Part shown: positions 3,091-30,341 of the stretch, in pieces
Layout of the letters: every line of letters starts with the position of its first letter
Position numbering within the stretch: the stretch's first letter is position 1
DNA from: Coprobacillaceae bacterium
GTDB taxonomy: Bacteria; Bacillota_I; Bacilli_A; Erysipelotrichales; Coprobacillaceae
Direction: 5' to 3'
NCBI GenBank assembly: GCA_963675515.1
Contig: OY776328.1
Span: forward strand, 1,290,001-1,322,000
Length of the DNA stretch: 32,000 bases
Position numbers and translations under genes: made by a program
Notes under the pieces: generated by a model
Databases searched by the model: none
Told to the model about the DNA's origin: nothing
Seen by the model: the letters and a program-made list of their open reading frames with translations, nothing else

Positions 3091-3092
3091 CG

Positions 3093-7354: not shown

Positions 7355-7660
7355 GACAAACTCCTCCATCATGGTTGGCTGTTGGTGCAAATGATATTTA
7401 ATGGCTGCCACAAGTGTTGGTGCTCATAGAAGGCATTGGACAATCGACTTGATCTATCAAGTAAATTATACTCCAAAACAATAATGATATGGATAAAAAT
7501 TTAAATCCAAATATAATTCCATGGTTAAACGCGAACTCCAGAATTTTTGATACGAATCATTGGAGCAGACGGATACTTTAGGTGTACAATTGTAGAAAGG
7601 GCGGGGCGTTAAAGTTTCCACCAACGTTTGCAGCAAAGCGGGCTCCGCCATGGGGACTCA

Positions 7661-9952: not shown

Positions 9953-10100
9953 AGAAATTCCTCCGTTTGGACGATTTATCTTCTAAGTTAATAGTAGCAC
10001 TTTTTTTGATGTTACTCAATTTTTTCCTTTAATCAGTCATGATGATATCGATATTGTTAAGCTTCAGTTCCCTGACCGTCACAAAAATAAGCCACATAGC

Positions 10101-10129
10101 TTGACAGTATCGGCTTGAATTCTTAAAAT
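10101..10129 (+). promoter_or_regulatory. near-consensus sigma-A promoter
   Basis: TTGACA (10101-10106), 17-nt spacer, TAAAAT (10124-10129). It lies about 75 nt upstream of the ATG at 10203. Confidence 0.5.
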
Positions 10130-10202
10130 CATTTCATGATAGGAAATGCCTTGGTAGACCATTTGACTTTTGGGGGCTGCCAAAAGAAGGAGGAACTCGA
10201 AA

Positions 10203-10702
10203 ATGAAAATCGCTGTTATCGCAGCTGCTCACAAAGCCGGCAGATTGATTGTAAAAGAATAATTGGAACGCGGCCATGAAGTGACCACCATTGTCAAGGA
10301 TGCAAAGAAGCTGACACAGACCGGAATCGATGTAGTTGTCAAGGATATTTTCGACCTTGAAATGGATGACCTGAAGGATTATGACGTTGTTGTCAATGCT
10401 TTCAATGCACCCGCCGGCCAGAAGAAGGGCATGTCATAGCGCCCCGGGTTCTTACCGATGCCTTGGCTGAATTGTCGAAGATAGAAAATATGGACTGGAC
10501 CGATATCTCACTGGCTATATTTTTTGATCCAAGCGGCATCAGGATAGGAAAATATACATTGTCTAATGACAATGTGATCACCAATTCCAGTGGCCAAATC
10601 TATGTGAGCTATCCGGATTTTGTGGTGGCACTGGTGGATGAGATTGAAAATGGCAATCATATCAAAGAAAGATTTACTGTTTTTTCTCAAAACCAGGCTT
10701 GA
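10203..10702 (+). pseudogene. NAD(P)H-binding (NmrA/YwnB-like atypical SDR) gene, degraded
   Basis: The protein starts MKIAVIAAAHKAGRLIVKE, so the GxxGxxG motif is eroded, and hits an in-frame TAA at 10260-10262. It continues LERGHEVTTIVKDAKKL..., reaches a second stop near 10437, and shifts frame into ORF 10463-10702 (DWTDISLAIFFDPSGIRIGKYTL...FVVALVDEIENGNHIKERFTV). The central GGAGSL region appears deleted. Confidence 0.75.
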
Positions 10703-10953
10703 AGTCGCAGTATAATGATAATGGAATAAGAAAATACCGGTAGTGGGTATGATTGCAGGTCCATATGGGATAGTGGCTCTTTCTGGTTGGGTGGGATTGA
10801 TGGTGTACATATCCGAAGTCTGATGGACGATATTTAAGGACGCGGCGGCGAAGCAGTTTGCTTGACATTTTTGGATGGATGTTTATCATTAGGGTATCAA
10901 AAATCATGTATCAGGGGCGTTGATTCGAATACATTAGTTGCAGGAGGTGGCAT

Positions 10954-11235
10954 ATGGGATATCCATATATTTTCAATATCACAATCGAGCAGGACAAGTA
11001 TCGCAGTGACGATGAGATGATCGGTGATGATAGCAGTGTGATTGGACGGGTTCTTTTTGGGGAGCGGATTGTCATGAAAAATGGTGATTCGCTGTACACA
11101 TACGATGTCGAATCCAAAAAAGAAGTTTTTGAAAAGCTTAAGTTTGGAAAAACGAGAATTGCCGGGTTGGATGATTACATGATCGCGGATAGTGCGACCG
11201 TCTACCGGATCAAAAAAGATGATACGTGTTGCTAA
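10954..11235 (+). CDS. hypothetical protein, 93 aa
   Basis: Strong ribosome-binding site GCAGGAGGTGG 5 nt before the ATG, and a terminator directly downstream. No family recognised. Confidence 0.55.
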   Translation: MGYPYIFNITIEQDKYRSDDEMIGDDSSVIGRVLFGERIVMKNGDSLYTYDVESKKEVFEKLKFGKTRIAGLDDYMIADSATVYRIKKDDTCC

Positions 11236-11262
11236 AGTCGGATGATAGGTCCGGCTTTTTTG
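11236..11262 (+). terminator. rho-independent terminator
   Basis: Stem AGTCGGA/TCCGGCT (one G-U pair) followed by a T6 run. Confidence 0.55.
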
Positions 11263-11289
11263 TTTCCATGATTTTCAGGTTTCCCAGTT

Positions 11290-12370
11290 CGTTTTCCCGC
11301 GTAGCTAAGCGGACCTGGTTTTGGAATGAATGGAAAATGCTTTTATTATGTATCTTGATTGTCCTGGGTTTGTCAGAGTGACCAATAGAAAAGTCACCCC
11401 TTTTTCAGGTGGTGACAGTGTCGCATCGCAATTCAGATCGCACATCCAGTATGACTTCCAGGGACTCGATGAACTCTTTTTTGAGATCCAGCGATCCGTT
11501 TTTAATGCACCTCATGCATTCATGCAGCTAGCCATTTTATTTGATGCAGTAGTCTATAGTAGCTGGTGGAGGTATTATATGGATAAAAAAGAACAAGAAT
11601 TTGTTGCATTGATGCGTCACCTCATCATCCATGACATCATTACTGGAAATTCTGGATATCCTATTATTTCCTTAGTTCCATCTAGAGTCACGCCTATGGC
11701 GATATGAACCGCCTCTTTAGACACGGTATCGCGCCGCAAAGGAATAACTGTAGCGTCGGTATAAACAACTGCGTATTGCATGTTTAACGGGCGATTTTTA
11801 AAGGCTTCAACATGGGCAACTATTTCCTTGGTGATATTGGAAACTGTCTGTCTGGAGTATTTCTTGCCGTAGATTGATTCAACAGTTTTGACAATATCGC
11901 TGTTGGCCATCCCTGAATTAAATAGATCGATGACAGTGTTGGTGGTAGCTAGATCGTTTCGTTGATATTTAGGAACCAGCGGAGAATCAAAATCACCCTG
12001 ACGGTCACGTGGTATGCGCAGGTTCAACACACCAAATTTAGTGTTGTAATCACGGGTGTAATAGCCATTTCTTGAATTAGAATTATTAGATCGGTCATAT
12101 TTCTCATAATCAAGAAAAACTGTAAGTTCAGACTTCAAAATATCGTTAATGGCATTCTCCAATTCGCTCCGGAAAAGTTCTGAGACCACTTGTTCAAAAG
12201 CAGGTAGATTATTATCATTAGATATTAGACTTCTAAGTAAGGTTGTTGTAAAATAGTTCATGGGTGTAATCCTCTCGTAAATTGTTTTTTGTCGAACTAA
12301 TTTTACAAGGGTTGCATCCTTTTTTATACTTAAAAGTTGAAATCCTATTTACACAAAATATTTTACACTA
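11290..12370 (-). mobile_element. IS256-family insertion sequence remnant (ends approximate)
   Basis: The transposase N-terminal 214 aa are intact (11617-12261). An IS256-like terminal sequence ...TGTGTAAAT... lies near 12340-12370. Downstream, 11290-11617 holds only scattered out-of-frame echoes of the C-terminal half (LHQI, DLKKEFIESLEVI, NKSIF) in far too little DNA for a full gene. Confidence 0.65.
11617..12261 (-). pseudogene. IS256-family (Mutator-type) transposase, truncated after about 214 aa
   Basis: SELTVFLDYEKYDRS.NSRNGYYTRDYNTKFGVLNLRIPRDRQGDFDSPLVPKYQR...YAVVYTDATVIPLRRD matches the N-terminal half of IS256 transposases as I recall them. Full-length proteins are about 400 aa. 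Confidence 0.8.
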
Positions 12371-12606
12371 TTATCGTAAATAATCCGGGTAAAGAACGAG
12401 TGATGTATGCCGTTCACTCGAAAATCTTGCAAGTGCTCAAGACGAAATTTTTACATCGGCCAAATTATTTTACAATTTTAATCATATTTATGGTTTCATG
12501 ACTAGAATGAAGATGAAAGCTGACAACCCTTTTCGAATAGTGATTTGGCAAATGAAATCAGACATGTTTAGCACATGTCGAAAAATATGGTTTGGGAGGA
12601 ATATTT

Positions 12607-12702
12607 ATGGTCTGGGAAATTACAAAAATTGCAGTTATATTATTTTTCGCGATTATATTTGTCATTGACATTTTGGTGGTTATGTCAAAAAGGGGCGGAT
12701 AG
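12607..12702 (+). CDS. candidate 31-aa hydrophobic peptide (type I toxin-like)
   Basis: Hand translation gives MVWEITKIAVILFFAIIFVIDILVVMSKRGG. GGGAGGA ribosome-binding site lies 7 nt upstream. It is a single TM helix with a basic tail and is below the ORF-track cutoff. Confidence 0.35.
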   Translation: MVWEITKIAVILFFAIIFVIDILVVMSKRGG

Positions 12703-12901
12703 TCATAAAATTTAAAATGAAATGAACCCACCAATGACTCTTTGTTATAATCACACAGTGGGCTACAGTATATGTAAATTCAAATGAAAATCAATATGGC
12801 GATAAATGCTGATTTAGACTTTATGGATGCCATCACAATTCATTGATGTTCGAGGTGCAAGCAATTGATGTCTGGCATTTTTGCGCTTGCATCCAATCCA
12901 A

Positions 12902-13006
12902 TTAATCGCCTGCGTCTTGGTACTCGTTACTTTCAACCGCATTGTTATCGTAATATGTCAATTCCTTTTCAAATGTGATTACGATCATGATTTCATCTTC
13001 GCTCAT
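12902..13006 (-). CDS. candidate 34-aa acidic peptide
   Basis: Hand translation gives MSEDEIMIVITFEKELTYYDNNAVESNEYQDAGD. AAAGGGGA ribosome-binding site lies 6 nt upstream of the ATG at 13006. There is no other support. Confidence 0.25.
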   Translation of the reverse strand: MSEDEIMIVITFEKELTYYDNNAVESNEYQDAGD

Positions 13007-13122
13007 AATTTGTCCCCTTTCAATTTGCCTAAAATCATCAAGTATAGAAAGTTAATGAATTTCCATTTTGCGCATATAATTGGATAATGTCATAAACATT
13101 TTTCATTCAAATTAAATTACTC

Positions 13123-13494
13123 TTGGTAAAATGTTACCACTTTTCGTGGAAATCACAACGAAAACGAATGATTCACGGGGTTGGGTTGACACAATACTTT
13201 CAGGTGGTGTTTATATCGCTGGGCCACACACGGGGGCTCCAAAACACTTATTGCAACGAATATGAGCGAAATATGTGGCTACAGGAGTCTTATGGAAAAG
13301 TGTCGGAACTGTTAGAATTCATAGAATTCAGATTAAGTATAAATATTACCAATGAACTACTAGAACAGCATTACCAAGTTTTGAAATATCAGAGAAAGAT
13401 ATCTGATGAGATTGCGGGTTCAAATGAAAGGCTAGGGATGTATTTGGAGATTGAGCGACTGAAAGAGCTTGAAAACATAGTCGAAAAAAGCTAA
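13123..13494 (+). CDS. hypothetical protein (true start uncertain, possibly ATG at 13273)
   Basis: Open frame in the AT-rich island. The C-terminal half looks helical or coiled. No convincing ribosome-binding site and no family recognised. Confidence 0.35.
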   Translation: MVKCYHFSWKSQRKRMIHGVGLTQYFQVVFISLGHTRGLQNTYCNEYERNMWLQESYGKVSELLEFIEFRLSINITNELLEQHYQVLKYQRKISDEIAGSNERLGMYLEIERLKELENIVEKS

Positions 13495-13617
13495 AACTAT
13501 TTTCTAGGAAAAATCCTTTGAAACCGTTGCTGGATAAGGTGTTCTGGGTTTTGAACTGAGGCAATATAATATTAGGGTTATTTTGCATGGATTATTGACA
13601 AAATTGGGGGTAAAAAA

Positions 13618-14118
13618 GTGATAATTACAATAAATACGATTCATATCCTTAGAGCGGAAGTACAAATGTATCAAGGAGTGCTCGAGGCGGCTACTGAGTT
13701 AATATCAAAAAAGATAGAGGAATATGAATCGAGGTCGGCCAAAATAGAGTCAATCCACGATAAATTGTACAATAAGGTTAGAAATGCAAATTACGGGATT
13801 GACTATTCTGGTATGATTACTGTTGAATTAGATTATAAATATCTTTCATTGATTGAAGAGCAGCTGATATTGGAGAATGATCTACGGAGAAAGTATTTAA
13901 ACGGCTTCGATATCGTGAACGAATTTAATCATGACTATCTTAAAGAACTTGATTATTGGTGTACCAGGATTGAAACGGTGGAATATTATTTGATTATGTT
14001 GGATAAAATTATTTTGAGTTTATTGCACATCCGGGCGATATATATAGGAAAAGTAAGCATATACTTAATAGACTGGTATGAAAGAGGTGTGTTTGTCAAT
14101 GATGGATGCACCAATTAG
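13618..14118 (+). CDS. hypothetical protein, 166 aa
   Basis: GTG start preceded by TGGGGGT. The sequence is AT-rich and K/E/Y/I-rich. No family recognised. Confidence 0.45.
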   Translation: MIITINTIHILRAEVQMYQGVLEAATELISKKIEEYESRSAKIESIHDKLYNKVRNANYGIDYSGMITVELDYKYLSLIEEQLILENDLRRKYLNGFDIVNEFNHDYLKELDYWCTRIETVEYYLIMLDKIILSLLHIRAIYIGKVSIYLIDWYERGVFVNDGCTN

Positions 14119-14178
14119 TGCGTTTATCGTTGACAAACAAGGAATAGCATAGTAATATTATCGTACAAGGAGGGGACT

Positions 14179-14484
14179 ATGAGCACTCATTATAATCAAC
14201 AATATTCTAGATCGGAGATTGAAGAGTTACTCGAAACAATCAAAGATTATGTACGCAACGATAAGCATTCTATGGCGTTGAATGAAAATAGGGAAGAAAA
14301 CAGGGGTTTTGTGAATGACTATAATGTTAATCGTCGAAAATTAAAAGAGATTTTGTTATGCATTGTAGTTGAAGATTTTTGTCATTCTCTAAATAATGTT
14401 AATAGAGGATTTGAACATGAGATCTTATATGTCTTTGTGCCAAAAGTGGATTTATTAACTGGTCGAGAACACTCGCGACTTTAG
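14179..14484 (+). pseudogene. MqsR-like toxin gene, 5' fragment (native sequence to about 14458, then read-through into the IS left end)
   Basis: Strong ribosome-binding site AAGGAGGGG. The EDFCHSLNN...HEILYVFVPKV pattern resembles MqsR (SDFYKSMTT...WQDVYRPRL). The ORF ends in the IS hairpin region. Confidence 0.5.
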
Positions 14485-14624
14485 TCGTGGAGATGAATCG
14501 ACTTTTTTGTGACTCTTTTCAACTGTGTTCTATTGGCTACATATATTGTTAAAATTATGGACTAAAAGTGCTTTAAAGCTGTAATTTTTTGCAACCATAT
14601 GTTAAAATGTATATGAGGTGATAA

Positions 14625-15053
14625 ATGATGGCTGATATTAATTACGGACGTGGTTATGTCTATTCGATTCAATACCATCTGGTCTGGTGTGTGAAATACC
14701 GTCACGATATTTTGACTGGTCAAGTTGACGATGATGTCAAGAAATTGTTGACTAAGATTGCAGCTGATAATGACATAAATATCGTTGAAATGGAATCGGA
14801 TAAGGACCATATCCACTTGCTTATCGATTGCAAGCCCCAACACCATATTCCCAGTATGGTAAAAGCGTTCAAAGGGTTATCTGCAAGATTCCTGTTCAAG
14901 CAACATCCTGAGCTTAAAAGTCGTCTATGGAAAGGTCATTTGTGGAATCCCAGCTATTTCGTAGCCACTGTTAGTGATAATACTCAACAGCAGATAATAG
15001 ATTATATAAAAAGTCAGAAGAAGAAATTAGGTGATGATGTTGTTGCACCATAA
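14625..15053 (+). CDS. tnpA: IS200/IS605 family Y1 (HUH) transposase TnpA
   Basis: YHLVWCVKYR, HUH motif HIHLLI, WNPSYFVATV and a C-terminal catalytic-Tyr region IIDYIKSQ. GAGGTG ribosome-binding site. 142 aa. Confidence 0.9.
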   Translation: MMADINYGRGYVYSIQYHLVWCVKYRHDILTGQVDDDVKKLLTKIAADNDINIVEMESDKDHIHLLIDCKPQHHIPSMVKAFKGLSARFLFKQHPELKSRLWKGHLWNPSYFVATVSDNTQQQIIDYIKSQKKKLGDDVVAP

Positions 15054-16179
15054 GGCATACAAGTTCAGGATCTACCCTGATAGTGAACAGGTAATACTGA
15101 TCTGTAAAACGATCGGATGTGCCCGATTTGTCTACAATCATTTCCTTAATCTGTGGAATGAGGCGTATGTCAATTCCGGTAAAGGTCTGTCTTACAATTC
15201 CTGCTCAGCCATGCTTCCGCAAATGAAACGGGATGATAATACGGAATGGCTAAAGGAAGTAGACAGCATCGCCCTCCAATCATCGGTGAAGAATCTTTCC
15301 GATTCTTTCGCGAGGTTCTTTAAAAAGCAAAACAGCCACCCGCGATACAAGAGCAAGAAGAATCCGGTTCAAAGCTACACTACAAAGAATGTGAACAACA
15401 GTATCGCTGTAATCGGCAAGTCGATCAAGTTGCCTAAGTTAGGTCTGGTAAGGTTCGCCAAGAGTCGGGAGATCAAGGGAAGGATAATTAAGGCGACAAT
15501 CCGGAAAAATCCCAGTGGCAAATACTTTGTTGCAATTGTTGTTGAAGAAAAGATCGAACAATTGCCCAAAGCGAATTCGATTATCGGTATTGACCTTGGC
15601 ATCCGTGACTTCGCGACATTTTCAAATGGCAGAAAAGTCGCAAATCATAAGTTCACTGGCAAGATGGAAAAGAAACTAATCTGCGAACAGAAAAAGCTGT
15701 CAAGACGGGCACGCCTAGCCAAAAGCAAAGGAATCAATCTTCTTGAAGCAAGAAACTACCAGAAACAAAGACGCAAAGTGGCATTGCTCCATGAAAAGGT
15801 AATGAACCAACGCAATGACTTTTTGAACAAGTTGACAACCCAGATCATCAAAAACCACGATGTAATCTGCATAGAAGACTTGAACACATTAGGAATGTTG
15901 CGTAATCATAGACTGGCTAAAAGCATATCCGATGTTTCCTGGTCGGCATTTGTGGCTAAGCTTATCTACAAGGCTGAATGGTATGGCAGAGAAATCATCA
16001 AGGTGGACCGCTGGTATGAGTCCAGCCAGATATGCAATAAATGTGGCCACAAGGATTGCAAGAAACCACTCCACATCAGGGAATGGACTTGTCCTAATTG
16101 TGGCAGTACCAATGACCGAGACATAAATGCAAGCAAGAACATCCTGAAAGAAGGACTGCGCATAATAGCATCAACATAA
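15031..16179 (+). CDS. tnpB: TnpB (IS605 OrfB) RNA-guided endonuclease; start may be ATG 15034 or 15037
   Basis: N-terminal AYKFRIYP..EQ. RuvC-like acidic residues sit in IGIDLGIRDF, ICIEDLN and NDRDINASKNI. Zn finger CNKCGH...CPNCG. The 5' end overlaps the tnpA 3' end. Confidence 0.9.
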   Translation: MMMLLHHKAYKFRIYPDSEQVILICKTIGCARFVYNHFLNLWNEAYVNSGKGLSYNSCSAMLPQMKRDDNTEWLKEVDSIALQSSVKNLSDSFARFFKKQNSHPRYKSKKNPVQSYTTKNVNNSIAVIGKSIKLPKLGLVRFAKSREIKGRIIKATIRKNPSGKYFVAIVVEEKIEQLPKANSIIGIDLGIRDFATFSNGRKVANHKFTGKMEKKLICEQKKLSRRARLAKSKGINLLEARNYQKQRRKVALLHEKVMNQRNDFLNKLTTQIIKNHDVICIEDLNTLGMLRNHRLAKSISDVSWSAFVAKLIYKAEWYGREIIKVDRWYESSQICNKCGHKDCKKPLHIREWTCPNCGSTNDRDINASKNILKEGLRIIAST

Positions 16180-16311
16180 ACAACTACTTAACTGTAGGGA
16201 CTACGGGGATAGCTTGGTAAAGAAGAGAAACCGCTGATTATGGTGGATGCACCATAATCAAGTAAGCTCTGTTCCCAAGAATCCCGTGACTTTCAGTCAT
16301 GGGAGGTTCAA
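16140..16311 (+). ncRNA. predicted omega RNA (reRNA) scaffold of TnpB (5' boundary is a guess)
   Basis: By analogy with characterised IS200/IS605 TnpB loci, the RNA spans the tnpB 3' end to the right end. A perfect 10-bp hairpin GATTATGGTG-GATG-CACCATAATC lies at 16236-16259 and a 9-bp hairpin at 16283-16303. Confidence 0.4.
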
Positions 16312-16439
16312 ACAATATTGATGGAGAAAAAGAGGAGGTGGAAATATATATTAAATTCAACATTTTGAATGATCGGGATAAAGTAGTGGTAATTTCTTTT
16401 CATAAATTAAACAGACCGATAGATTATTTGTTTGTGTAG
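16312..16439 (+). pseudogene. MqsR-like toxin gene, 3' fragment
   Basis: Hand translation gives NNIDGEKEEEVEIYIKFNILNDRDKVVVISFHKLNRPIDYLFV*. Compare the MqsR C-terminus GQVYLKITVIHDVLIVSFKEK. Confidence 0.5.
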
Positions 16440-16464
16440 TAAGTTGAAAAGTGGGGAAAAGAAA

Positions 16465-17501
16465 ATGAAAATGAAAATTGAAAATTTAAATGAAAATGAA
16501 AATGTAAATGAAGAAGAAAAAGTATTTTGTTATGAATGTAGAGATGATGTAAGTTATAATTTGCAAAGTATAAATCTTATTGGCAAATTAAAAGGTATTA
16601 AATATGAGTATGTCGGAAAAGTAGCTTATTGCGATGAATGTGGTCTTGAAGTATATATACCAGATGTTGAAGATTTTAATTTAAAAGCGCTTTATGATGT
16701 TTATCGTGAGGCAAACGATATTATATCTTTAGAAAAAATCAAAGAAATACCCAGTAAATATGATATTGGAAAGAGACCATTGTCATTGCTATTAAATTGG
16801 GGAGAAAATACTTTCAGCCGATTTGTCAATGGGGATATGCCATCAAAGCATATTCTGATGTGCTGAAAAAAATATATGAAAGTCCAGAATATTTCAAAGA
16901 AATTTTGGAAACTGGCAAATCTAATTTAAAATCCGAATTGTCATATGAAAGGAGTATAAAAAAAGTTAACAGTTTGCTAAATTCAAAAGTTTTACAAAGT
17001 AGTAAAATTGATGAAGTTATAGAATATATTTTGTACAAATGTGAAGATACAACACATTTGGCACTTCAAAAAATTTTGTACTATGTTCAGGGCTTTAATT
17101 ATGCTTTTTATGAAAAATTTTGTTTCGAAGATGAATGTGAAGCCTGGGTACATGGTCCTGTCTTTAGGAATGTTTATAGTAAATATTCTTCTTCTGGATA
17201 TGATTCTATTGAATCACCAAAGGAACTTTGTTTTATAACGCTCACTTCAATAGAAGTGGCAATTTTGGACAGTGTTATTAAAAATTTTGCATGTTATAGT
17301 GGTAAAACTTTGGAGAGTTTTACACATTCTGAAGAGCCTTGGATCGTAACTAGAGGAGATTTGCCGATGGGAATGCCATCTGATAAAGTTATTGAAAAAG
17401 AATTGATTGCTAAGTATTTTAAAGAAGTTAAGAATAAGTATGAAATGTTAAAACCTTCGGATATAAAAAAATATTCATCTTCTTTATTTGATGAAATTTG
17501 A
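16465..17501 (+). pseudogene. MqsA-like Zn-ribbon/HTH antitoxin fused to a Panacea (DUF4065, SocA/GepA-like) domain, frameshifted
   Basis: Zn ribbon CYEC...CDEC followed by LSLLLNWGENTFSRFVNGDMPSK (HTH). The frame breaks near 16846-16850, and ORF 16797-17501 continues AYSDVLKKIYESPEYFKEIL, which parallels MqsA STIKLLRVLDKHPELLNEI. The Panacea core follows: LALQKILYYVQGFNYAFYEK.....EAWVHGPVF..VY. Confidence 0.7.
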
Positions 17502-17670
17502 AATAGTATTTTGAATGACCACATGGCTCAGGTTGAGAATTTTAGTAGTGAAATGTCGAAATTTGGCCGCTTAATAATCCAACAAATTTCAGCATTTCAG
17601 AACAGTTATCGCATTTTCGCAAACCAATAGAATTGCTGCCTGTGTTTTATGGTCATTCAAAAATAGTATT

Positions 17671-17713
17671 GACTTACTTTTGATTTACATTTTAGAAAGT
17701 AAGTCTTTTTTTT
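17671..17713 (+). terminator. rho-independent terminator of the TA locus
   Basis: Perfect 10-bp stem GACTTACTTT (17671-17680) / AAAGTAAGTC (17696-17705) followed by a T8 run (17706-17713). Confidence 0.7.
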
Positions 17714-17949
17714 CCTTTCATTAATTGTTTAATGCATTATATAAACAATTTTAAAAAGAATGCTGTATTAAGCATGGTGTTAAAGTGATAATATTTAAAT
17801 GTGAAGCAAACGAAAATATTTTTAATAGAGTCATTGTTTACTATGTACATAGTATTAATCAAGTTGATTGCTTGTGACCATTTTGGTGACCGTTAGAAAT
17901 GCATATCTACAAAACACTTAGTAAACACCTACACAATTTTGTGTTAAAA

Positions 17950-17993
17950 ACAAAAAAAGGTATTAAACAACTATTGAATAGTTGCTTAATACC
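17950..17993 (-). terminator. rho-independent terminator of rpsD
   Basis: Long minus-strand hairpin GGTATTAAGCAACTATT-CAA-TAGTTGTTTAATACC (17959-17993) followed by a T7 run (plus-strand A7 at 17952-17958). Confidence 0.75.
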
Positions 17994-18009
17994 TAAATTT
18001 TTATTTGGG

Positions 18010-18615
18010 TTACCCCATTCTATTGTAGTACTCAACGATTAATGATTCATTGATTTCTTGGTTCAATTCTGATCTTTCAGGTAATCTAGTCATTTTACCT
18101 GTCAGTTTAGCTCCGTCAACTTCAACGAAAGCTGGTACATGAGTACGTCCTTCGATAGCTGCTTTGATAACTGCCATGTTTAAAGATTTTTCTCTGACTG
18201 CTACTACGTCACCAACGTTTACTTTCATTGATGGGATGTCAGCTTTGATTCCGTTTAAAGTGAAGTGTCCGTGGTTTACTAATTGTCTAGCTGCTCTTCT
18301 TGTAGGAGCGAATCCTAAACGGTAAACTACGTTGTCCAAACGGCTTTCCAGTAAGCAGAAGAAGTTGTAACCAGTGATTCCATCCATCTTAGATGCTCTT
18401 TTGAAAGTGTTGTGGAATTGTTTTTCGTTAACACCATACATATGTCTCACTTTTTGCTTTTCAGCTAATTGTGCCCCATATTCAGTTTGTTTTTTTCTTT
18501 TTTGTCCGTGTTGCCCAGGAGCGTAAGGACGTTTGTTTAGTTCTTTACCGTTTTCTAAAGTAGAGAATCCTAAACGACGTGATAATTTCCATTGTGGTCC
18601 AGTATAACGTGCCAT
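18010..18615 (-). CDS. rpsD: 30S ribosomal protein S4
   Basis: [16 protein letters not shown]...[10 protein letters not shown].(S/T)EYG.QL.EKQK.R..YG. GGAGGAAAAA ribosome-binding site. I start it at the internal ATG 18615 rather than at 18666. Confidence 0.95.
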
Positions 18616-22438: not shown

Positions 22439-22467
22439 GAATGAAATATTGTACCCGGGGGAATCAT

Positions 22468-23937
22468 ATGCAATTAGAACCAATCAAACAAACATCATAC
22501 CTGACAGCCTTGAACTGTCACCTGTATCGAAGGATCATGCGGATCGTCTATCTCGAGAGCACCCATTACAACTATCATCTCGACCTTGAGAAAATCATGG
22601 AGAAACTTGAAAATGACGGGTTCGATGGAGCCGTTGATGAGACGACGCTCAAAAACGCCCTTGATGCCCTGGTGGACTGGGGCAATCTGACCGCCATCCA
22701 GGATGCCAAACAGGTCAACACGATTGCCGAATTCAAGGCCCGCAAGTTCCGCTATTCGATCAGTGATGCCGCCCTGGAAGTCGAGCGGATGGTGATGAAA
22801 CTCGAAAACCTGACTGTAAAAAGCAACACCGCCTCGCTAGGCTATCTCAAGCGGCTGTACCAGGAATTCAAAAGGATCCTTACGATAAGCGATGCCAGCG
22901 ATATGCAGCTGCTCGAGTGGTGGGAGTATGTCGGAAACGATTTTGCGACCTTGAACCTGGTTTACAGCGACTATCTCCGGGATTTTTCCGGCGACCGGTC
23001 AGCGAAGCTGATGCAGTCGCTGGAGTTCTTGCAACACAAGGAGTACTTCGTCAAGATGCTCAAGGATTTCGTCACCCAGTTGCAGATTTATGCCATCGAG
23101 TTCGAGAAGATCCTGGTGAGCCTTGAGAGCGACTATGTCGACAATATCCTTGAGAGCATCATAACCGCCCAGAAGAAGAACCCGTCTTCGCTTGGTGCGC
23201 TTGAATACACCGATGAAAAATACCTGAGAGACGGGGTTTTTGGCCGCTACAGCGAGCTGCGAAGGTGGTTTGTCAAGTCACCAGGCAGCCAGAGTGAAGT
23301 TGAAGCGATCATGGATAGAACGAACATCATTATCCGCCAGATTATCCAGAATGCCGGCCTGATCATCGACTTCCATGAAGGGATAATATCAAAGAAGGAT
23401 GATTACCGCCATTACCTGAAACTCTTCGCCAGGATATCCGAGCTAAGTGAGGCCCACAGGCTGGCGGCCCATCTTTTCGGGGTCCATGACATCCGTCATT
23501 ACCAGACCAATGCGCCCCGCCTGAGCGAGAGCAGTGCCATTTCGACTTTCGACGAGGCGCCCCAGGTGTTCGAAGTCAAGCCGATGACCCGGAAATACCG
23601 GATCAAGCAGGAAAAAATCAGACTGGTCGACCGCTCGCTGGAAAAGCAACTCCAAAGCCAGGCCCATCAGGCGATGATTGCCGGTCAGATCAAGATCGCC
23701 AATACCTACATCAAGGCCAAACGGATCGACTTCAAGGACATCGTTGACGAAATATCGCCCTCGACCCGGCTGCTGCTGCTGTCGTGGGTAGCCAGCGCAT
23801 CGGGCACGATTGACAAGGTCGGCACAAGCGAGTTTGGCCGGCGCTTCAAACTAATGAGAATGGATGAGACAATCACGCTTCGCTGCAGTGATGGCGACCT
23901 TGAGATGCCCCGTTTCATCCTGGAATTCGAGGATTAA
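22468..23937 (+). CDS. jetA: Wadjet JetA-like protein (DUF2397 / TIGR02677-like; kleisin/MksF analogue), 489 aa
   Basis: First gene of the four-gene operon. The N-terminal YLTALNCHLYRRIMRIVY resembles the TIGR02677 start as I recall it. GGGGGAA ribosome-binding site lies before ATG 22468, so the ORF-track start 22441 is probably too early. Confidence 0.75.
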   Translation: MQLEPIKQTSYLTALNCHLYRRIMRIVYLESTHYNYHLDLEKIMEKLENDGFDGAVDETTLKNALDALVDWGNLTAIQDAKQVNTIAEFKARKFRYSISDAALEVERMVMKLENLTVKSNTASLGYLKRLYQEFKRILTISDASDMQLLEWWEYVGNDFATLNLVYSDYLRDFSGDRSAKLMQSLEFLQHKEYFVKMLKDFVTQLQIYAIEFEKILVSLESDYVDNILESIITAQKKNPSSLGALEYTDEKYLRDGVFGRYSELRRWFVKSPGSQSEVEAIMDRTNIIIRQIIQNAGLIIDFHEGIISKKDDYRHYLKLFARISELSEAHRLAAHLFGVHDIRHYQTNAPRLSESSAISTFDEAPQVFEVKPMTRKYRIKQEKIRLVDRSLEKQLQSQAHQAMIAGQIKIANTYIKAKRIDFKDIVDEISPSTRLLLLSWVASASGTIDKVGTSEFGRRFKLMRMDETITLRCSDGDLEMPRFILEFED

Positions 23938-23943
23938 GATAAG

Positions 23944-25053
23944 ATGATACCAAAGGAATTGCTTGAAAACTTCTGGGTCCAAAAAAGCGACGACCCCAAG
24001 AAGTTCTATCAGCTAAAAAGAGAACTCAAAGAGTCGCAAAGCTTCATCAACAACCAGATCGGCTGGAAAGTCATTGCCAATGACAATCTCCTCAAGATAG
24101 AAAAGACCCCTTACCTGGCTTCAAGCTACATGGGGATTGGAGAATTTAACGATGTCGACGATTACCTTTTCCTGGTGGCCACCCTGATCTTCCTTGAGGA
24201 CAAGGGCGTGCATGAGCAGTTTTTGCTTTCAGGCTACATCGAAGGAATCGAGGTCATCCTGGGCGATCTTGTCGAACTGGACTGGACGAGCTATTCTAGG
24301 CGCCGGACGCTGATCAGGGTCATGGAATACTGTCTAAGTCTTGGTCTGCTCAAGGTGACTGACGGTTCGCTGGATGGCTTCAAGAGCGGGGGCGAGGGCG
24401 AGGTGCTCTACGAGAACACCGGACTGTCGAAGTATTACCCGGTGAGTTTCAACTTCGATGTCACCAAGATCGAAGGGGTTGACGACCTGGTCGTGCAAGC
24501 CAATGAGTCGACCGACATCCTGCGCAACTGCGTCTATCAACTCCTTATCACCAGTCCGGGGGTGACCTGGAGCTCAAGCGAGGATGTCTTTGGCAAGTAT
24601 CTCAAGAACCAGCGTTTCAATATCCAGAAAAACATCGACCGCTATTTAAGCGGTGAGCTGATGATATTCAAGAACTCGGCCTATCTGATGGTCTCGAGCG
24701 ATGACAAATATGGAACCCTTCATCCCAGCGGCAAATCGATCAGTTCGCTGGTGCTGTTTGTCCAGAAGCGGATTGTTCAAAGCTGCAACGATGGCGAACT
24801 CAAGCTTTTGAGTGAGGATGTGATCGAGATAGGCGAGGAAGAATTTTCCAAGCTGGTGATCGGTGTTTACAACCAGGTTCTTCCGGGGTTGTCGATCGAG
24901 TATCGCAATATGGATATCGACAACGTGATCAAGGCGGTGGTTTGCTATATGGAGGAATTCCACCTGATCAGACGTGACGAAAATAAGATAATAATACAAG
25001 GGGCGGTGGCCCGTCATGAGGGAAGCTACCCTTATGATTTTGTGGAGGCGTAG
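23944..25053 (+). CDS. jetB: Wadjet JetB-like protein (DUF2398 / TIGR02678-like; MksE analogue), 369 aa
   Basis: The position, size and acidic character fit. It starts 6 nt after jetA, has a GAGGAT ribosome-binding site, and its stop abuts the jetC ATG. Confidence 0.7.
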   Translation: MIPKELLENFWVQKSDDPKKFYQLKRELKESQSFINNQIGWKVIANDNLLKIEKTPYLASSYMGIGEFNDVDDYLFLVATLIFLEDKGVHEQFLLSGYIEGIEVILGDLVELDWTSYSRRRTLIRVMEYCLSLGLLKVTDGSLDGFKSGGEGEVLYENTGLSKYYPVSFNFDVTKIEGVDDLVVQANESTDILRNCVYQLLITSPGVTWSSSEDVFGKYLKNQRFNIQKNIDRYLSGELMIFKNSAYLMVSSDDKYGTLHPSGKSISSLVLFVQKRIVQSCNDGELKLLSEDVIEIGEEEFSKLVIGVYNQVLPGLSIEYRNMDIDNVIKAVVCYMEEFHLIRRDENKIIIQGAVARHEGSYPYDFVEA

Positions 25054-28000
25054 ATGAAAGAAAGATGGCAGATGCATCGGATGGGACTTGTGAATTTCTG
25101 GTATTTCGATGACCAGGAGTTCGAGTTTGCCAATGGCAAGCTTCTGATCCGGGGACAGAACGGATCGGGGAAATCGATATCGACCCAATCGTTCATCCCG
25201 TTCATATTGGATGGCAACAAGGCACCATACCGGCTGGATCCCTTCGGGTCCAAGGACCGGCGAATGGAATATTATTTCCTGCTCGATGGCAAGAATGACG
25301 AATCGGTCGGGTATATCTGGCTGGAGTTCAAGAAGATGGGATCCGACCAGTACCGGACCCTGGTCATCGGACAGCGGGCCCGCAAGAACAGCGACATGCA
25401 GTTCTGGAGCGGCATCATCCTGGACAACCGCAGGATCAACCGCGACTTCCAGCTCAAAAAGCGCCTGGGCGACTCATGGGTTATCCTTGCCAAACAGGAA
25501 TTCAAAAACGCGCTGGGGGAAAGCAATTTCTACTCTGAGCGGGCGGTGGAGTACAAGGCCGCGGTCAACAAGCATATTTTCGGTTTCGACCAGCTGGAAC
25601 AGTACGACCAGTTCGTTGATCTGCTTATCAAGGTGCGGGCGCCCAAGCTTTCCAAGGAATTCAAGCCGACCAAGATCTACGAGATCTACAATGAAAGCCT
25701 CCAGGTGCTAAGCGACAGCGACATCCTGCCGATGGTCGAATCGATGGAAGAGATCGACCGGACCCAGGCTAAGCTCGATGAATTCCAGGCGACCAAAAAG
25801 GCGCTGGACAATGTCGGTCGCGTCTACAATGTATATAACCGCTACTACCTGGCCAAAAAGGCGCAAAATTACATCCGTCATCGCGATGAGTTCAAGGATC
25901 TTTCCAACCGGCTTATAGCCGGAGAGGGACAGTATGACGCCAACCAGAAAGCGATGGAGGAAATCGATAAAAGGACCGGTGAGCTAGGTGAAGCCAACTC
26001 CCTGCTCCAAACCGAAAGGGCCAGTCTCCCGCTTGATGATATCGAAGCCAAGATTGAAAGCTACAAACTAGCCAAGAGCGAAGTTCAAGATCAGGTAAAT
26101 GAACTCAAGGCGCTTCAAGTCAAACTCGACGGGGCCCTGGTGGAAAAAGATGTCAAAATCACCCAGCGCCGTCAACTTGAACAGGATGCAAGTGACTGCG
26201 AGTATCTCGCTTCAAAAGGGATCAAGGAACTTGACTCGATCAACGAGATTGCGAAATTGCCTGGACATCAAAAGATCCGCCGCCTGGAAAATCCCAATGA
26301 ACTTCTAGGCCAGTGCGACGAACTGGAAGGGGAGTTGAACAAGGTTGCCAAAAAGGTCGACCAGGTTCTTGGCTGCCTTGACTCGCGCCATCAAGAACAG
26401 CTAAAGCGTGATGAACTCGCGCAAGAGCTGTCTCATGTCAATGAACAGATCGCCCAAAGCAACAGTCTCCTTGATGGAAAGACCCGGGAGATTGAAAATG
26501 CCAAGGATGAGCTGATCAACCGGTTCTATCACTACGTCCAGGAGAATCACGCCCTGGATATTTCAAGCCGGACTGGCGATCTGGCCAATATTATCAGGGA
26601 ATACAAAGGCTATGGCGATTTCAAAATGATCGACCGGATCCTGGTGGAACTAAAAGGCGACCAGGCGATGACTTTAAGCAAGTCGGTGCTGGAGATGCGT
26701 TTTGCCTTGAACAACTTCCAGAAGGACAGGGATCTGCTTAACCAGGAACTCATCAGCCTCATCCAGGCGCAGGATCTGGAATACCCGGCCAATGATTCCG
26801 TTGGCCTGGGTCGGAAAATCCTCAAAGACAACGGGATTGATTTTATCAGTGTTTACCAGGCGTTGGAGTTCGACGAATCGCTTGGTGTCGAGTCAAAAAA
26901 CATCCTCGAAGCCCAGCTGGTAGCGACCAATCTGATCGATGCGATCATCGTCAATCATGAAAACTACCAGCAAGCCAAGGAGCTGTTGCGGGGTCATGAC
27001 CAGATCCTGGTGGCTCCTACAAGCCAGGGCCATAAGGGCAGACGGTTTGTAAGGGGGAACCATCCCCGCTTTGAATCGGAAATCGATGATTTCATCGCGA
27101 TGTTCGATGCCGATGAAAAATTCGGGCTTAACGGCCATTACCGCTACGGGCTGGTTGAAGGTTTCGTCTCATCCAGGCATGAAAGCGTCTATGTGGGCGA
27201 ACAGTCGCGCAAGGCCAATCGTAAAAGACAGATCGCTTCGATCGAAACAAAAATCGCCCTGCTCGAAAAACAGATCGCAACGGCCAGCCAGGAAATTGAC
27301 CAGCTCGAACAAGCCGGGATCAGGCTGGAGGAAGACTATGAAAGCCTCCAGGTATTCGACGGCCTCGACGAGTTGCTTGGACAGCTTGGTGAACTTGAAG
27401 CCTGGCTGATCCAGGCCGCCAGAAGGCAACAGGAGCTTTCCAACCAGGTCGAGCAAGTCAAGGCCAGGCTGGTGAAAATCAAGAACGACATGCTTGGACT
27501 GTCCCGGGACCTGCCATACCATCTTGAAAGTGGTATTTATCAGGATGTCAAAGAGAGCCTGGGCGACTATCGGACCGCATTGAACCAGGTGAACCGCGAA
27601 TTGCTTCTATGGCAGACCAAGAGTGTCCAGGTGCAAACGATCGGCGAGGTTGTCGACAAGATAAGTGAACAGGTCGATCAATTCTATGCCCTGACCCGCC
27701 AGGAAGAAAGCAGGATTGCCAAAAACCGCACCATTATCGCGACAATCGAAAACTACCTCAATCAAGAATCGACCAAGGAGCTTCATAAGCGGGTCAGAAG
27801 AATCGACGAAACGCTCGAAGTGAACGGGCTTGAACTCGAAGAACTCACCAGCCAGCGCCATCTATACCGGGAAGCGAATCTCCTGCTTGAGCGCGATATC
27901 GCCCTTATGGCAGGCCAGAAAGAAAAAGCGGAGGTCTGCCTCGATCTTTCAAGGGAACTGTTTGTCCAGGAACTTGACCTGGAATACGTGCCTGGGATAA

Positions 28001-29064: not shown

Positions 29065-30341
29065 TCGAAGAGTGCGCAGCCTACTTCAAGGCGAAGCCGG
29101 AATTCGACCGGGTCTTCATCCTGATGAAAAAGCAGTGGGAGAAGTACGGCCGGATTGCCGGTTACATAATTCTAAACAAGCCAACAGCCGGCGAAAAGGA
29201 TGTCCTGTCCAAGTTTTTGCATCAGGATTTTGGCTATCCCGCCAATCTGACCAAGATCAGGTTCAAGATGGCTGACTTCCAGGAAGCGCTGGAGATAACA
29301 AGGTTCAAAAAACTTGATTTAAAGGAAATCCTTGACGCCTACTTCCAGGTGGAAATATCGACGACCGGCCACAAACGGATGGCCGCTCAAAAAAAACAGG
29401 CCGATTTTTTCGGGGAGCTGGCACAGCTGATAAGCCAACCGCAGGTGGCAAACTGGTTTGACTGGCTGCGCCATTCCAAAAGCAGCGGCTATGTCCTGAT
29501 AAAGTCATTGGCCAAAGAAGACGAACAGGCAGCGCGCCAGGCGATCAAGGCGGTAGATGACGCTGTTGCCTGTCTTGATGAAAGTGCTTTTGCTCTGGCG
29601 GTTCTAAGTGCCCGGGTTACGGGCAATCCCCACTATTTCGACCGCAACACCAAGCCGGGGAGGCTGCTTATAAGTTGCCTCGCCCATATCCACAAGCTTG
29701 CAACGCCAGGCCATGCCCAGGGGATATTGGAACTGTACGCTTTGGCCAAAATAACGCCGGATGACATCTCGTCGAGTGTGGTCATCAAAAACATCGATCT
29801 TTTTCAAGGGGATAAAATCCATCCTGGGGTAGCCGGATTCAATGAGCTAAACGAGCCTTGCGTGGTGACCCTGGGAAATCTGGCGAACGTCAGCTTTGCT
29901 TCAAGCAAGCCCTGTGTTTTTGTTTTTGAAAACCAGATGGTCTTTTCCCATCTGGCAAGCGAGCGCTTCTACAACTGCTCCCTGGTATGCACTTCGGGGC
30001 AGCTCAAGGTCGCGGCATTGAAGCTTTTCGAGATGCTTGACAAGGATGTGAAAATTTTTTACAGCGGCGATTTCGATCCCGAAGGCCTGCAGATAGCCGA
30101 CAAGCTTCTAGGCCGTTTTTCCAACGTGGAGCCGTGGGGTTTTGATGAGGAACTCTACTTCCAGGCGCTTTCAAACGAGAACATCAGCGAGATCCGTCTT
30201 TCCAAGCTCGATTCGCTTAATGACTCGCGGTTAAAAGAAGTGGCCAAGGCGATCAGGGAAAACAAGCTGGCCGGTTACCAGGAAAATATCCTCGATTTCT
30301 ATCGTAAAGACATTCTCAGGATCATTGCGGAAAACCAATAA
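29061..30341 (+). CDS. jetD: Wadjet JetD-like protein (DUF2399 / TIGR02679-like) with C-terminal Toprim nuclease domain, 426 aa
   Basis: ATGA start/stop overlap with jetC. The Toprim glutamate sits in VFVFENQ (GAA at 29928-29930) and the DxD in SGDFDPEG (30069-30077). Confidence 0.85.
   Translation: MIEECAAYFKAKPEFDRVFILMKKQWEKYGRIAGYIILNKPTAGEKDVLSKFLHQDFGYPANLTKIRFKMADFQEALEITRFKKLDLKEILDAYFQVEISTTGHKRMAAQKKQADFFGELAQLISQPQVANWFDWLRHSKSSGYVLIKSLAKEDEQAARQAIKAVDDAVACLDESAFALAVLSARVTGNPHYFDRNTKPGRLLISCLAHIHKLATPGHAQGILELYALAKITPDDISSSVVIKNIDLFQGDKIHPGVAGFNELNEPCVVTLGNLANVSFASSKPCVFVFENQMVFSHLASERFYNCSLVCTSGQLKVAALKLFEMLDKDVKIFYSGDFDPEGLQIADKLLGRFSNVEPWGFDEELYFQALSNENISEIRLSKLDSLNDSRLKEVAKAIRENKLAGYQENILDFYRKDILRIIAENQ

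What the first reader, a model, noticed from the sequence alone, without database searches (positions are those of the whole stretch)
16465..17501. Antitoxin architecture: MqsA-type Zn-ribbon + HTH fused to a Panacea (DUF4065) domain, itself frameshifted
Seen in sequence:
- The protein has CYEC...(31 aa)...CDEC and then an HTH-like LSLLLNWGENTFSRFVNGDMPSK.
- The frame breaks near 16846-16850.
- The second frame continues seamlessly with AYSDVLKKIYESPEYFKEIL, then HLALQKILYYVQGFNYAFYEKFCFEDECEAWVHGPVFRNVY.

Established knowledge:
- The last block matches the SocA/GepA-like Panacea domain, described as a hyperpromiscuous antitoxin domain (Kurata et al. 2022).
- MqsA is a Zn-ribbon + HTH antitoxin.

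Inference:
- One polypeptide combined both neutralisation and regulatory modules opposite an MqsR-like toxin.
- I do not recall this pairing being characterised.
- Toxin (IS insertion) and antitoxin (1-nt frameshift) are both inactivated, consistent with loss of the antitoxin being tolerated only after toxin loss.
Basis: partly seen in the sequence, partly recalled or inferred. Interest (0 to 1): 0.65.

Follow-up and report, generated by a model that had tools for sequence, protein, structure and literature searches.

The report
Broken copy of known MqsR–PanA module
This is a decayed copy of an already described toxin–antitoxin pair (an MqsR-like toxin with a zinc-ribbon/HTH/Panacea antitoxin): a mobile element has split the toxin gene and a one-base deletion has broken the antitoxin gene, so it is ordinary rather than new.

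Summary
Window 16465-17501 is one antitoxin gene broken by a 1-nt deletion at 16846-16851. The repaired 345-aa product has an MqsA-type Zn-ribbon (C22/C25/C56/C59), an HTH and a Panacea/DUF4065 domain. It aligns end to end with more than 100 single-ORF proteins of about 331 aa.

The gene upstream is the cognate 135-aa toxin, split by a 1853-bp IS200/IS605 element at 14459-16311. Removing the element in silico restores a full-length match to the 136-aa proteins found just upstream of intact antitoxin homologues. The toxin family is only distantly MqsR-like (hhalign E 1.7e-5; 19 of 75 members hit Pfam MqsR_toxin). Foldseek did not recover MqsR.

The claim of novelty fails. Ernits et al. 2023 (PMC10440598) validated MqsR:PanA pairs with this ZBD-HTH-Panacea architecture in Bacillus fungorum and Lactobacillus rossiae. 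They showed that the ZBD, not Panacea, neutralises the toxin.

The order of inactivation cannot be inferred, because the truncated product keeps the ZBD.

The locus sits in an island of about 8 kb with low GC and several other broken genes, in an Erysipelotrichaceae genome. Relatives about 84% identical in DNA lack the island.

Verdict: a degraded new member of a known kind, of low interest.

The parts
14130..14159 (+). Best sigma-70-like promoter of the region (TTGACA, 17 nt, TAATAT), 20 nt upstream of the toxin start. Putative promoter of the operon.
   Evidence: 10 of 12 matches, the top hit in 13900-18050. The total number of promoter-like sites there is not above chance, so this is suggestive only.
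14179..14458 (+). 5' part of the toxin gene (codons 1-93), up to the IS insertion point.
   Evidence: Joining it to 16312-16439 gives a 135-aa ORF with 53-60% identity and 99% coverage to 136-aa homologues.
14459..16311 (+). IS200/IS605-family insertion sequence of 1853 bp (ends uncertain by about 2 nt because of flanking A residues). tnpA is at 14625-15053 and tnpB at 15031-16179.
   Evidence: Y1_Tnp E 1.1e-41; OrfB_IS605, Cas12f1-like_TNB and HTH_OrfB_IS605; subterminal hairpins at both ends; excision restores the toxin frame with no target duplication.
16312..16439 (+). 3' part of the toxin gene (codons 94-135 plus the stop codon).
   Evidence: Contains the conserved YIKFN and ISFH motifs of the family.
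16456..16520 (+). (GAAAAT)n hexanucleotide array of about 10.8 copies over the antitoxin RBS and start. It adds about 14 N/E/K-rich codons that no homologue has.
   Evidence: a 14-residue N-terminal insertion relative to all 11 aligned homologues.
16465..16848 (+). Antitoxin 5' part (residues 1-128): MqsA-type Zn-binding domain (Cys codons within 16528-16641), a linker helix and HTH helices 1-3. The broken frame runs on to a stop at 16864-16866.
   Evidence: TIGR03830; profile against E. coli MqsA 3GN5/2KZ8, E 1.2e-4; model pLDDT above 90 here; Foldseek 3GN5 E 1.5e-4.
16846..16851 (+). Frameshift site: a 1-nt deletion relative to the family (AAG CA- TAT).
   Evidence: The site is not a long homopolymer, and the A6-A7 runs elsewhere in the gene are in frame.
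16851..17501 (+). Antitoxin 3' part (repaired residues 130-345 plus the stop codon): HTH helices 4-5, a long linker helix and the Panacea/DUF4065 domain (Pfam match 17064-17342).
   Evidence: (SocA_Panacea 201-293, E 2.4e-17).

Best explanation
Window 14130-17501 is a recently inactivated, horizontally acquired type II toxin-antitoxin operon of the MqsR-like:PanA kind, with the toxin gene first. When intact, it would have encoded a 135-aa MqsR-like (RelE-superfamily) RNase toxin and an antitoxin of about 331-345 aa.

By analogy with the characterised Bacillus fungorum homologue (inferred, not tested here), each part of the antitoxin would have had its own role:
- The N-terminal four-Cys zinc-binding domain binds and neutralises the toxin.
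- The central HTH dimerises and autoregulates the promoter.
- The C-terminal Panacea domain has an accessory role. Ernits et al. suggest that it senses an activating cue.

In this genome the toxin gene is split by an apparently intact IS200/IS605 element (tnpA plus tnpB). The antitoxin gene carries a 1-nt deletion between HTH helices 3 and 4. The gene can therefore yield at most two products: a 133-aa product with an intact ZBD and a truncated HTH, and possibly a separate Panacea fragment from an internal start. Neither product has a toxin left to control.
For: Shown here:
- Domain hits for the repaired antitoxin.
- A family profile hits E. coli MqsA over residues 8-129 of 131.
- An AF2 model (mean pLDDT 87) whose best PDB match is MqsA 3GN5 (E 1.5e-4). 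Its HTH superposes on 3FMY with TM 0.77 and rmsd 1.8 A.
- 119 of the 120 best listed hits (of 1734) are single-ORF homologues that align straight through the break.
- The reconstructed toxin is 53% identical over its full length to the gene 30 nt upstream of an intact antitoxin in L001/L002. The same holds in L010, L013 (B. cereus plasmid) and L014 (C. estertheticum plasmid).
- Toxin family against MqsR: hhalign E 1.7e-5, probability 78.6%, 86 columns. Pfam MqsR_toxin is the only family hit repeatedly, by 19 of 75 members, best E 3.5e-6.
- IS parts and terminal hairpins.
- Both genes keep every family-invariant residue, so the lesions look young.
- The island is absent from relatives 84% identical in DNA.

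From the literature:
- Truncation analysis of B. fungorum PanA (ZBD 1-71, HTH 72-174, Panacea 175-349) shows that ZBD or ZBD-HTH neutralises MqsR_D2, while Panacea alone or HTH-Panacea does not (PMC10440598).
Against: - The window's own toxin is below the Pfam MqsR_toxin cut-off (14.5 against 26.2 bits).
- Foldseek of a confident toxin model (pLDDT 83) found no MqsR or RelE structure at E<0.07.
- I could not obtain the B. fungorum or L. rossiae sequences. Membership of the same subfamily therefore rests on domain architecture and on 40-42% identity to B. cereus-group plasmid pairs.
- A single assembly cannot prove that the 1-nt deletion is real.
- No function was assayed.
Confidence: 0.88

Rival explanations
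1. The frameshift is a sequencing or assembly error. The organism would then carry an intact ZBD-HTH-Panacea antitoxin as an orphan beside the toxin that the IS has destroyed.
For: - Only one assembly holds this sequence: clusters of the window's own ORFs have one member and one contig.
- Another frame break in the window, in the P-type ATPase, lies in an A7 run, which is typical of long-read errors.
- Orphan or toxin-less intact antitoxins of this family exist (L005, L011).
Against: - The break is at AAGCAT, not in a homopolymer.
- Three A7 and two A6 runs inside the same gene are in frame.
- All long conserved genes in 18-31 kb, including one of 1336 aa, are intact.
- The gene also carries a microsatellite expansion at its start and more departures from conserved columns than any of 40 homologues (14 against a median of 4, though the window's protein is also the most divergent row).
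Confidence: 0.17
2. The split is functional. The 133-aa ZBD/partial-HTH product, the free-standing Panacea product (from the internal GTG at 16860, 213 aa as called in the source genome), or both are made and retained for a role. One such role would be cross-neutralising a paralogous MqsR-like toxin elsewhere in the genome.
For: - An isolated ZBD is enough for neutralisation in the B. fungorum homologue (PMC10440598).
- Standalone Panacea antitoxins exist (PMC8832971).
- The gene caller of the source genome called the 213-aa C-terminal ORF (P0002).
Against: - No homologue among the best 120 is split in this way.
- The cut removes HTH helices 4-5, which form the dimerising part in MqsA.
- There is no RBS-like sequence before the internal GTG in the sequence read.
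- The cognate toxin is destroyed and the surrounding island is full of pseudogenes.
- The rest of the genome could not be searched for paralogues.
Confidence: 0.07
3. Programmed -1 ribosomal frameshifting on A_AAG (16845-16848) restores a full-length antitoxin reading ...PSK-AYSD....
For: tRNA-Lys slippage on A-AAG is a known shift-prone event (my own knowledge). The -1 shift there would give exactly the in-frame continuation.
Against: - There is no full X_XXY_YYZ heptamer.
- The downstream 82 nt fold no better than shuffled sequence (z = -0.06).
- All homologues are plain single ORFs with Q at this position.
Confidence: 0.02

Closest known systems
MqsR_D2:PanA systems of Bacillus fungorum (WP_099686063.1 / WP_099686064.1) and Lactobacillus rossiae (WP_017263062.1 / WP_017263061.1), Ernits et al. 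2023, PNAS 120:e2305393120
   Same: - The antitoxin architecture is ZBD (MqsA type) + HTH + C-terminal Panacea, of similar length (349 aa against 331-345 aa).
- The upstream partner is MqsR-like and the gene order is toxin first.
- B. cereus-group megaplasmids carry pairs 42% (antitoxin) and 40% (toxin) identical to the window's proteins.
   Different: - The window's copy is dead: an IS in the toxin gene, a frameshift in the antitoxin gene and a microsatellite at its start.
- Direct sequence comparison with the two validated systems could not be done.
- The nearest database relatives of the window's proteins are clostridial, at 60-61% identity at most.
E. coli MqsR/MqsA (YgiU/YgiT; PDB 3HI2, 3GN5, 3O9X)
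   Same: - The CxxC-x30-CxxC zinc ribbon followed by an XRE-type HTH.
- A profile hit over almost the whole of MqsA (E 1.2e-4) and the best Foldseek match.
- Toxin-first operon.
- The toxin family aligns to MqsR residues 10-97.
   Different: - MqsA has no Panacea domain (131 aa).
- The toxin here is 135 aa with an N-terminal extension of about 35 aa.
- The toxin has His where MqsR has Lys in the DFYK and SFK motifs (alignment; the catalytic roles of the MqsR residues are from memory).
- Toxin similarity is detectable only with profiles.
SocA of Caulobacter (type VI antitoxin, founding Panacea/DUF4065 protein)
   Same: Shares the Panacea domain (Pfam PF13274).
   Different: - The NCBIfam SocA equivalog scores 43.4 bits against a cut-off of 190.
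- SocA has no ZBD or HTH, pairs with SocB and acts as a ClpXP adaptor.
IS200/IS605-family elements such as IS608 (tnpA plus tnpB)
   Same: - A Y1 transposase plus TnpB.
- Subterminal hairpins.
- Insertion without target duplication, next to a short A/T-rich tetranucleotide (TTAA here), with a right end ...TTCAA.
   Different: Nothing unusual was seen. It is relevant only as the agent that killed the toxin gene.

Membership tests
PanA (Panacea-domain antitoxin), ZBD-HTH-Panacea subtype | Panacea/DUF4065 domain above the Pfam gathering score | tested here: met
   PF13274, 64.3 bits against 25.7, E 2.4e-17, residues 201-293, profile positions 1-112 of 113.
PanA (Panacea-domain antitoxin), ZBD-HTH-Panacea subtype | N-terminal MqsA-type zinc-binding domain with four Cys | tested here: met
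   C22/C25/C56/C59 are invariant or nearly so. TIGR03830 scores 61.7 bits, 0.1 bit below its 61.8 cut-off, but covers 126 of 127 positions. The profile hits MqsA structures at E 1.2e-4. Foldseek 3GN5 E 1.5e-4.
PanA (Panacea-domain antitoxin), ZBD-HTH-Panacea subtype | Central XRE-type HTH | tested here: met
   MqsA C-domain 3FMY TM 0.77, rmsd 1.8 A; HigA2 5J9I TM 0.79-0.84; five helices, 89-150.
PanA (Panacea-domain antitoxin), ZBD-HTH-Panacea subtype | Bicistronic with a conserved adjacent toxin gene | tested here: met
   The toxin stop is at 16439 and the antitoxin start at 16465. The same pair, with a gap of about 26-40 nt, occurs in L001/L002, L010, L012, L013 and L014.
PanA (Panacea-domain antitoxin), ZBD-HTH-Panacea subtype | Uninterrupted reading frame | tested here: not met
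   A 1-nt deletion at 16846-16851. The window therefore holds a pseudogene of a family member, not a working member.
PanA (Panacea-domain antitoxin), ZBD-HTH-Panacea subtype | Neutralises its cognate toxin, and forms a complex through the ZBD | not testable with these tools
   Known only for the B. fungorum homologue (PMC10440598).
MqsR toxin family (RelE superfamily RNase) | Pfam MqsR_toxin (PF15723) at or above the gathering score | tested here: not met
   14.5 bits against 26.2 (E 0.047) for the reconstructed toxin. Among 75 diverse family members, 19 hit at E<=0.01, best 3.5e-6. One member examined individually scored 23.1 bits over profile positions 5-95 of 95.
MqsR toxin family (RelE superfamily RNase) | Profile-level homology to E. 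coli MqsR | tested here: inconclusive
   hhalign probability 78.6%, E 1.7e-5, 86 columns, MqsR residues 10-97.
MqsR toxin family (RelE superfamily RNase) | MqsR/RelE-like fold | tested here: not met
   Foldseek against the PDB with a model of pLDDT 83 gave no hit at E<0.07 and no MqsR or RelE entry in the top 50. The order of secondary structure (helices, then a 5-stranded sheet) is compatible but proves nothing.
MqsR toxin family (RelE superfamily RNase) | RNase activity and toxicity | not testable with these tools
   No assay was possible, and the gene is disrupted by the IS in any case.
SocA (type VI antitoxin) | NCBIfam SocA_antitoxin equivalog score | tested here: not met
   43.4 bits against a cut-off of 190. 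Only the Panacea core matches.
IS200/IS605 | Y1 (HUH) transposase TnpA plus TnpB, subterminal hairpins, no target duplication | tested here: met

The most novel reading that the evidence does not exclude
The frameshift has produced a natural 'domain dissection': a ZBD-only neutraliser and a free Panacea protein. One or both would be retained, for example to neutralise a paralogous MqsR-like toxin elsewhere in the genome, or with Panacea acting as a stand-alone sensor.
Probability: 0.05. Interest if true: 0.35.

Novelty: new member of a known kind. Interest (0 to 1): 0.12.

Why it matters
It matters little in itself. The ZBD-HTH-Panacea antitoxin opposite an MqsR-like toxin is a widespread family. 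This work found more than 1,700 antitoxin homologues, and 656 toxin clusters at 50% identity. The architecture has been dissected experimentally.

The locus is a tidy example of how a toxin-antitoxin module decays inside an acquired island. It also carries a caution: in multidomain PanA antitoxins a frameshift after the ZBD need not abolish neutralisation, so 'toxin must have died first' arguments are unsafe.

For annotation, the two ORFs should be merged as one pseudogene, and the two toxin fragments likewise.

Tried and rejected
- Foldseek of the toxin model against the PDB gave only weak NTF2/cystatin-like noise and no MqsR.
- phmmer and hmmsearch of the toxin, and of its profiles, against PDB sequences found no MqsR hit.
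- NCBIfam gave nothing for the toxin family. PADLOC gave nothing for either protein.
- The genome-contig scan with the repaired antitoxin returned only one distant clostridial MAG locus (44% identity). That locus is an orphan without a toxin. The source genome and close orthologues are not in that collection.
- No protein closer than 61% (antitoxin) or 60% (toxin) exists in the 5.8-billion-protein collection, so no intact orthologous pair from a related genome could be found.
- Programmed frameshifting was rejected because there is no downstream structure.
- 'Two genuinely separate genes' was rejected because the break falls inside the HTH domain, and 119 of the 120 best homologues listed read through it; the other is the window's own C-terminal fragment.

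Full report
**Observation.**
- The ORF from ATG 16465 carries CYEC (residues 22-25) and CDEC (56-59). These are 30 residues apart, not 31. It then reads ...LSLLLNWGENTFSRFVNGDMPSK, followed by HILMC and a stop at 16864-16866.
- The +2 frame is open from 16797. It continues AYSDVLKKIYESPEYFKEIL... through HLALQKILYYVQGF...AWVHGPV, to a stop at 17499-17501.
- Joining the frames after K128 gives a 345-aa protein.

**What the repaired protein is.**
- It hits Pfam SocA_Panacea (PF13274) at E 2.4e-17 (64.3 bits against a cut-off of 25.7; residues 201-293).
- It hits NCBIfam TIGR03830, 'type II TA system antitoxin MqsA family', at E 5.6e-17. The hit covers 126 of 127 model positions and scores 61.7 bits, 0.1 bit under the curated cut-off.
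- A profile of 41 family members hits the E. coli MqsA/YgiT structures (3GN5, 3O9X, 2KZ8) at E 1.2e-4, over residues 8-129 of 131.
- An AlphaFold2 model (mean pLDDT 87) has MqsA 3GN5 as its best PDB match (Foldseek E 1.5e-4, probability 1.00). Its HTH superposes on the MqsA C-domain 3FMY at TM 0.77 and rmsd 1.8 A.
- The model places the frameshift exactly at the start of HTH helix 4. The strands of the zinc ribbon are at 20-56, the linker helix at 66-83, HTH helices 1-3 at 89-121 and helices 4-5 at 128-150. A long helix follows at 158-176, and the Panacea domain runs from about 181 to 344.

**One gene, not two.**
- The protein search found 1734 homologues at E<=1e-3. 119 of the 120 best listed are single ORFs of 329-340 aa, 52-61% identical over 91-97% of the query. 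The remaining one (P0002, 213 aa, 100% identity, 62% coverage) is the window's own C-terminal ORF. Several of the homologues are named 'putative zinc finger/helix-turn-helix YgiT family protein', 'DUF4065 domain-containing protein' or 'type II toxin-antitoxin system antitoxin SocA domain-containing protein'.
- They align without a gap through the junction (GDMPSK|AYSDVL against the consensus GDMPTKQYSDIL).
- K128 and Q129 are at least 90% conserved, and Y130 is invariant.
- The simplest lesion is therefore loss of the third base of a CAA/CAG codon between 16850 and 16851.
- The site is not a homopolymer, and three A7 and two A6 runs in the same gene are in frame. All long conserved genes in 18-31 kb are intact. 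I therefore rate a genuine mutation as more likely than an assembly error (about 0.8 against 0.17). Only raw reads can settle this.
- Programmed -1 frameshifting on A_AAG is formally possible. It has no downstream structure (z = -0.06) and no parallel in any homologue.

**The partner gene.**
- Upstream, ORF 14179-14484 and the tail of ORF 16299-16439 are two pieces of one gene. An IS200/IS605 element separates them.
- In the element, tnpA is at 14625-15053 (Y1_Tnp E 1.1e-41). tnpB is at 15031-16179 (HTH_OrfB_IS605, OrfB_IS605 and Cas12f1-like TNB).
- The element has similar subterminal hairpins at both ends.
- Removing 14459-16311 (1853 bp, ends uncertain by about 2 nt) joins ...VPKVDLL to NNIDGEKEEVEIYIKFN... 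in frame, with no duplication.
- The resulting 135-aa protein is 53% identical, end to end, to the 136-aa ORF that lies 30 nt upstream of an intact antitoxin homologue in L001/L002. It has 601 homologues, almost all of 135-137 aa and unnamed.
- The same toxin-then-antitoxin pair is present in four further loci:
  - L010 (Anaerosacchariphilus);
  - L012;
  - a B. cereus megaplasmid (L013), with the toxin 40% and the antitoxin 42% identical;
  - a C. estertheticum plasmid (L014), with 49% and 53%.
- In L011 (Thermodesulfobium) the toxin is itself frameshifted beside an intact antitoxin. L005 has an orphan antitoxin.

**Is the toxin MqsR-like?** Only distantly.
- The window's protein scores 14.5 bits on Pfam MqsR_toxin (cut-off 26.2).
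- Foldseek of a confident model (pLDDT 83) found no MqsR or RelE structure.
- An exhaustive profile search gave 656 clusters at 50% identity. Among 75 diverse members, MqsR_toxin is the only Pfam family hit repeatedly (19 members, best E 3.5e-6).
- hhalign of that profile against E. coli MqsR gives probability 78.6% and E 1.7e-5 over MqsR residues 10-97. The alignment matches DFCH to DFYK, YIKFN to YLKIT and ISFH to VSFK.
- The MqsR sequence and the catalytic roles of its residues are from my memory.
- I therefore call the toxin 'MqsR-like' at superfamily level. I do not file it as a Pfam MqsR family member.

**Comparison with the literature.**
- Kurata et al. 2022 (PMC8832971) report MqsR-like as the most frequent known toxin domain next to Panacea (n=90). 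They cite a 2013 prediction of a DUF4065 antitoxin for MqsR. They also note that many PanAs carry N-terminal HTH domains.
- Ernits et al. 2023 (PMC10440598) validated MqsR_D2:PanA systems from Bacillus fungorum and Lactobacillus rossiae, both annotated 'Panacea; ZBD (MqsA); HTH'.
- They dissected the B. fungorum antitoxin into ZBD 1-71, HTH 72-174 and Panacea 175-349. ZBD alone or ZBD-HTH neutralises the toxin. Panacea alone or HTH-Panacea does not.

**Consequences for the interpretation.**
- Neutralisation maps to the ZBD, which lies wholly upstream of the frameshift. The broken gene still encodes a plausible neutraliser (residues 1-128 plus 5 out-of-frame residues). What is lost is HTH helices 4-5 and the covalent link to Panacea.
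- The inference that the antitoxin could only be lost after the toxin is therefore not justified. Either order is viable.
- Both genes keep every family-invariant residue, so both lesions are probably recent.
- The antitoxin departs from conserved columns more than any of 40 homologues (14 of 145 against a median of 4). Two of the 14 are artefacts of the repair and of the N-terminal extension. The window's protein is also the most divergent row, so this is only a weak hint of relaxed constraint.
- A third oddity is a (GAAAAT)n array (16456-20, about 10.8 copies) across the RBS and start. It adds 14 codons that no homologue has.

**Context.**
- Housekeeping proteins in the window cluster at 90% identity or more with proteins of Erysipelotrichaceae MAGs. 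The source contig is 2.88 Mb.
- Relatives about 84% identical in DNA are collinear from 18007 onward. They have only 475 bp (L007) where the window has about 8 kb (9968-18006). GC there is 29-42%, against about 50% in the flanks.
- The island also holds a truncated IS256/Mutator transposase.
- Elsewhere the window has a group II intron with a split RT ORF and a P-type ATPase broken at an A7 run.
- The toxin-antitoxin module is thus one of several decaying accessory genes in an acquired island. Its closest relatives are clostridial.

**Verdict.**
- The locus is a pseudogenised new member of the known MqsR-like:PanA (ZBD-HTH-Panacea) toxin-antitoxin kind.
- Interest is low (0.12).
- The only reading with some novelty is a functional natural split into a ZBD neutraliser and a free Panacea protein. 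I give it about 5%.

Noticed in passing
window 569-3096 (+): A group II intron (Rfam RF02004 at 569-747, RF00029 at 3012-3096). Its RT/maturase/HNH ORF is split over two overlapping frames (1203-1958 and 1843-2997), so it is probably frameshifted.
   Followed up: partly
window 4798-7411 (-): A P-type cation ATPase in two pieces (Cation_ATPase_N in 6998-7411, the rest in 4798-6759). The frame break is at a GAAAAAAAG (A7) run near 6815. It could be a slippage mutation or a homopolymer sequencing error.
   Followed up: partly
window 11617-12261 (-): A truncated IS256/Mutator-family transposase, matching Pfam Transposase_mut positions 18-200 of 379 only.
   Followed up: no
window 9968-18006; L006 10610-15439; L007 10610-11085: An island of about 8 kb with low GC, between a DUF362/4Fe-4S gene and rpsD. 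It is absent from relative L007, which has 475 bp there. L006 has a different insert at the same spot, carrying a reverse transcriptase. The site looks like an insertion hot spot.
   Followed up: partly
window 16456-16520 (+): A (GAAAAT)n hexanucleotide array of about 10.8 copies, covering the antitoxin RBS and start codon. It adds about 14 N/E/K-rich residues that all aligned homologues lack.
   Followed up: partly
window 17485-17672: An inverted repeat (17509-17532 and 17639-17662, 79% complementary) immediately 3' of the antitoxin stop. The stretch 17485-17661 is 76% identical to L006 12766-12949, beside that locus's RT gene. It may be a small mobile-element remnant.
   Followed up: no
window 22441-30341 (+): A complete type II Wadjet anti-plasmid system, JetA2-JetB2-JetC2-JetD2 (PADLOC E from 1e-103 to 0). 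It is conserved in the related MAGs.
   Followed up: partly
L011 1059-1464; L005 3700-3998: Other decay states of the same toxin-antitoxin family. In Thermodesulfobium the toxin is frameshifted next to an intact antitoxin. A Clostridiales MAG has an orphan antitoxin with no toxin upstream.
   Followed up: partly
window 13123-14118 (+): Two ORFs (123 and 166 aa) just upstream of the toxin-antitoxin promoter have no significant Pfam hit. They were not examined further.
   Followed up: no
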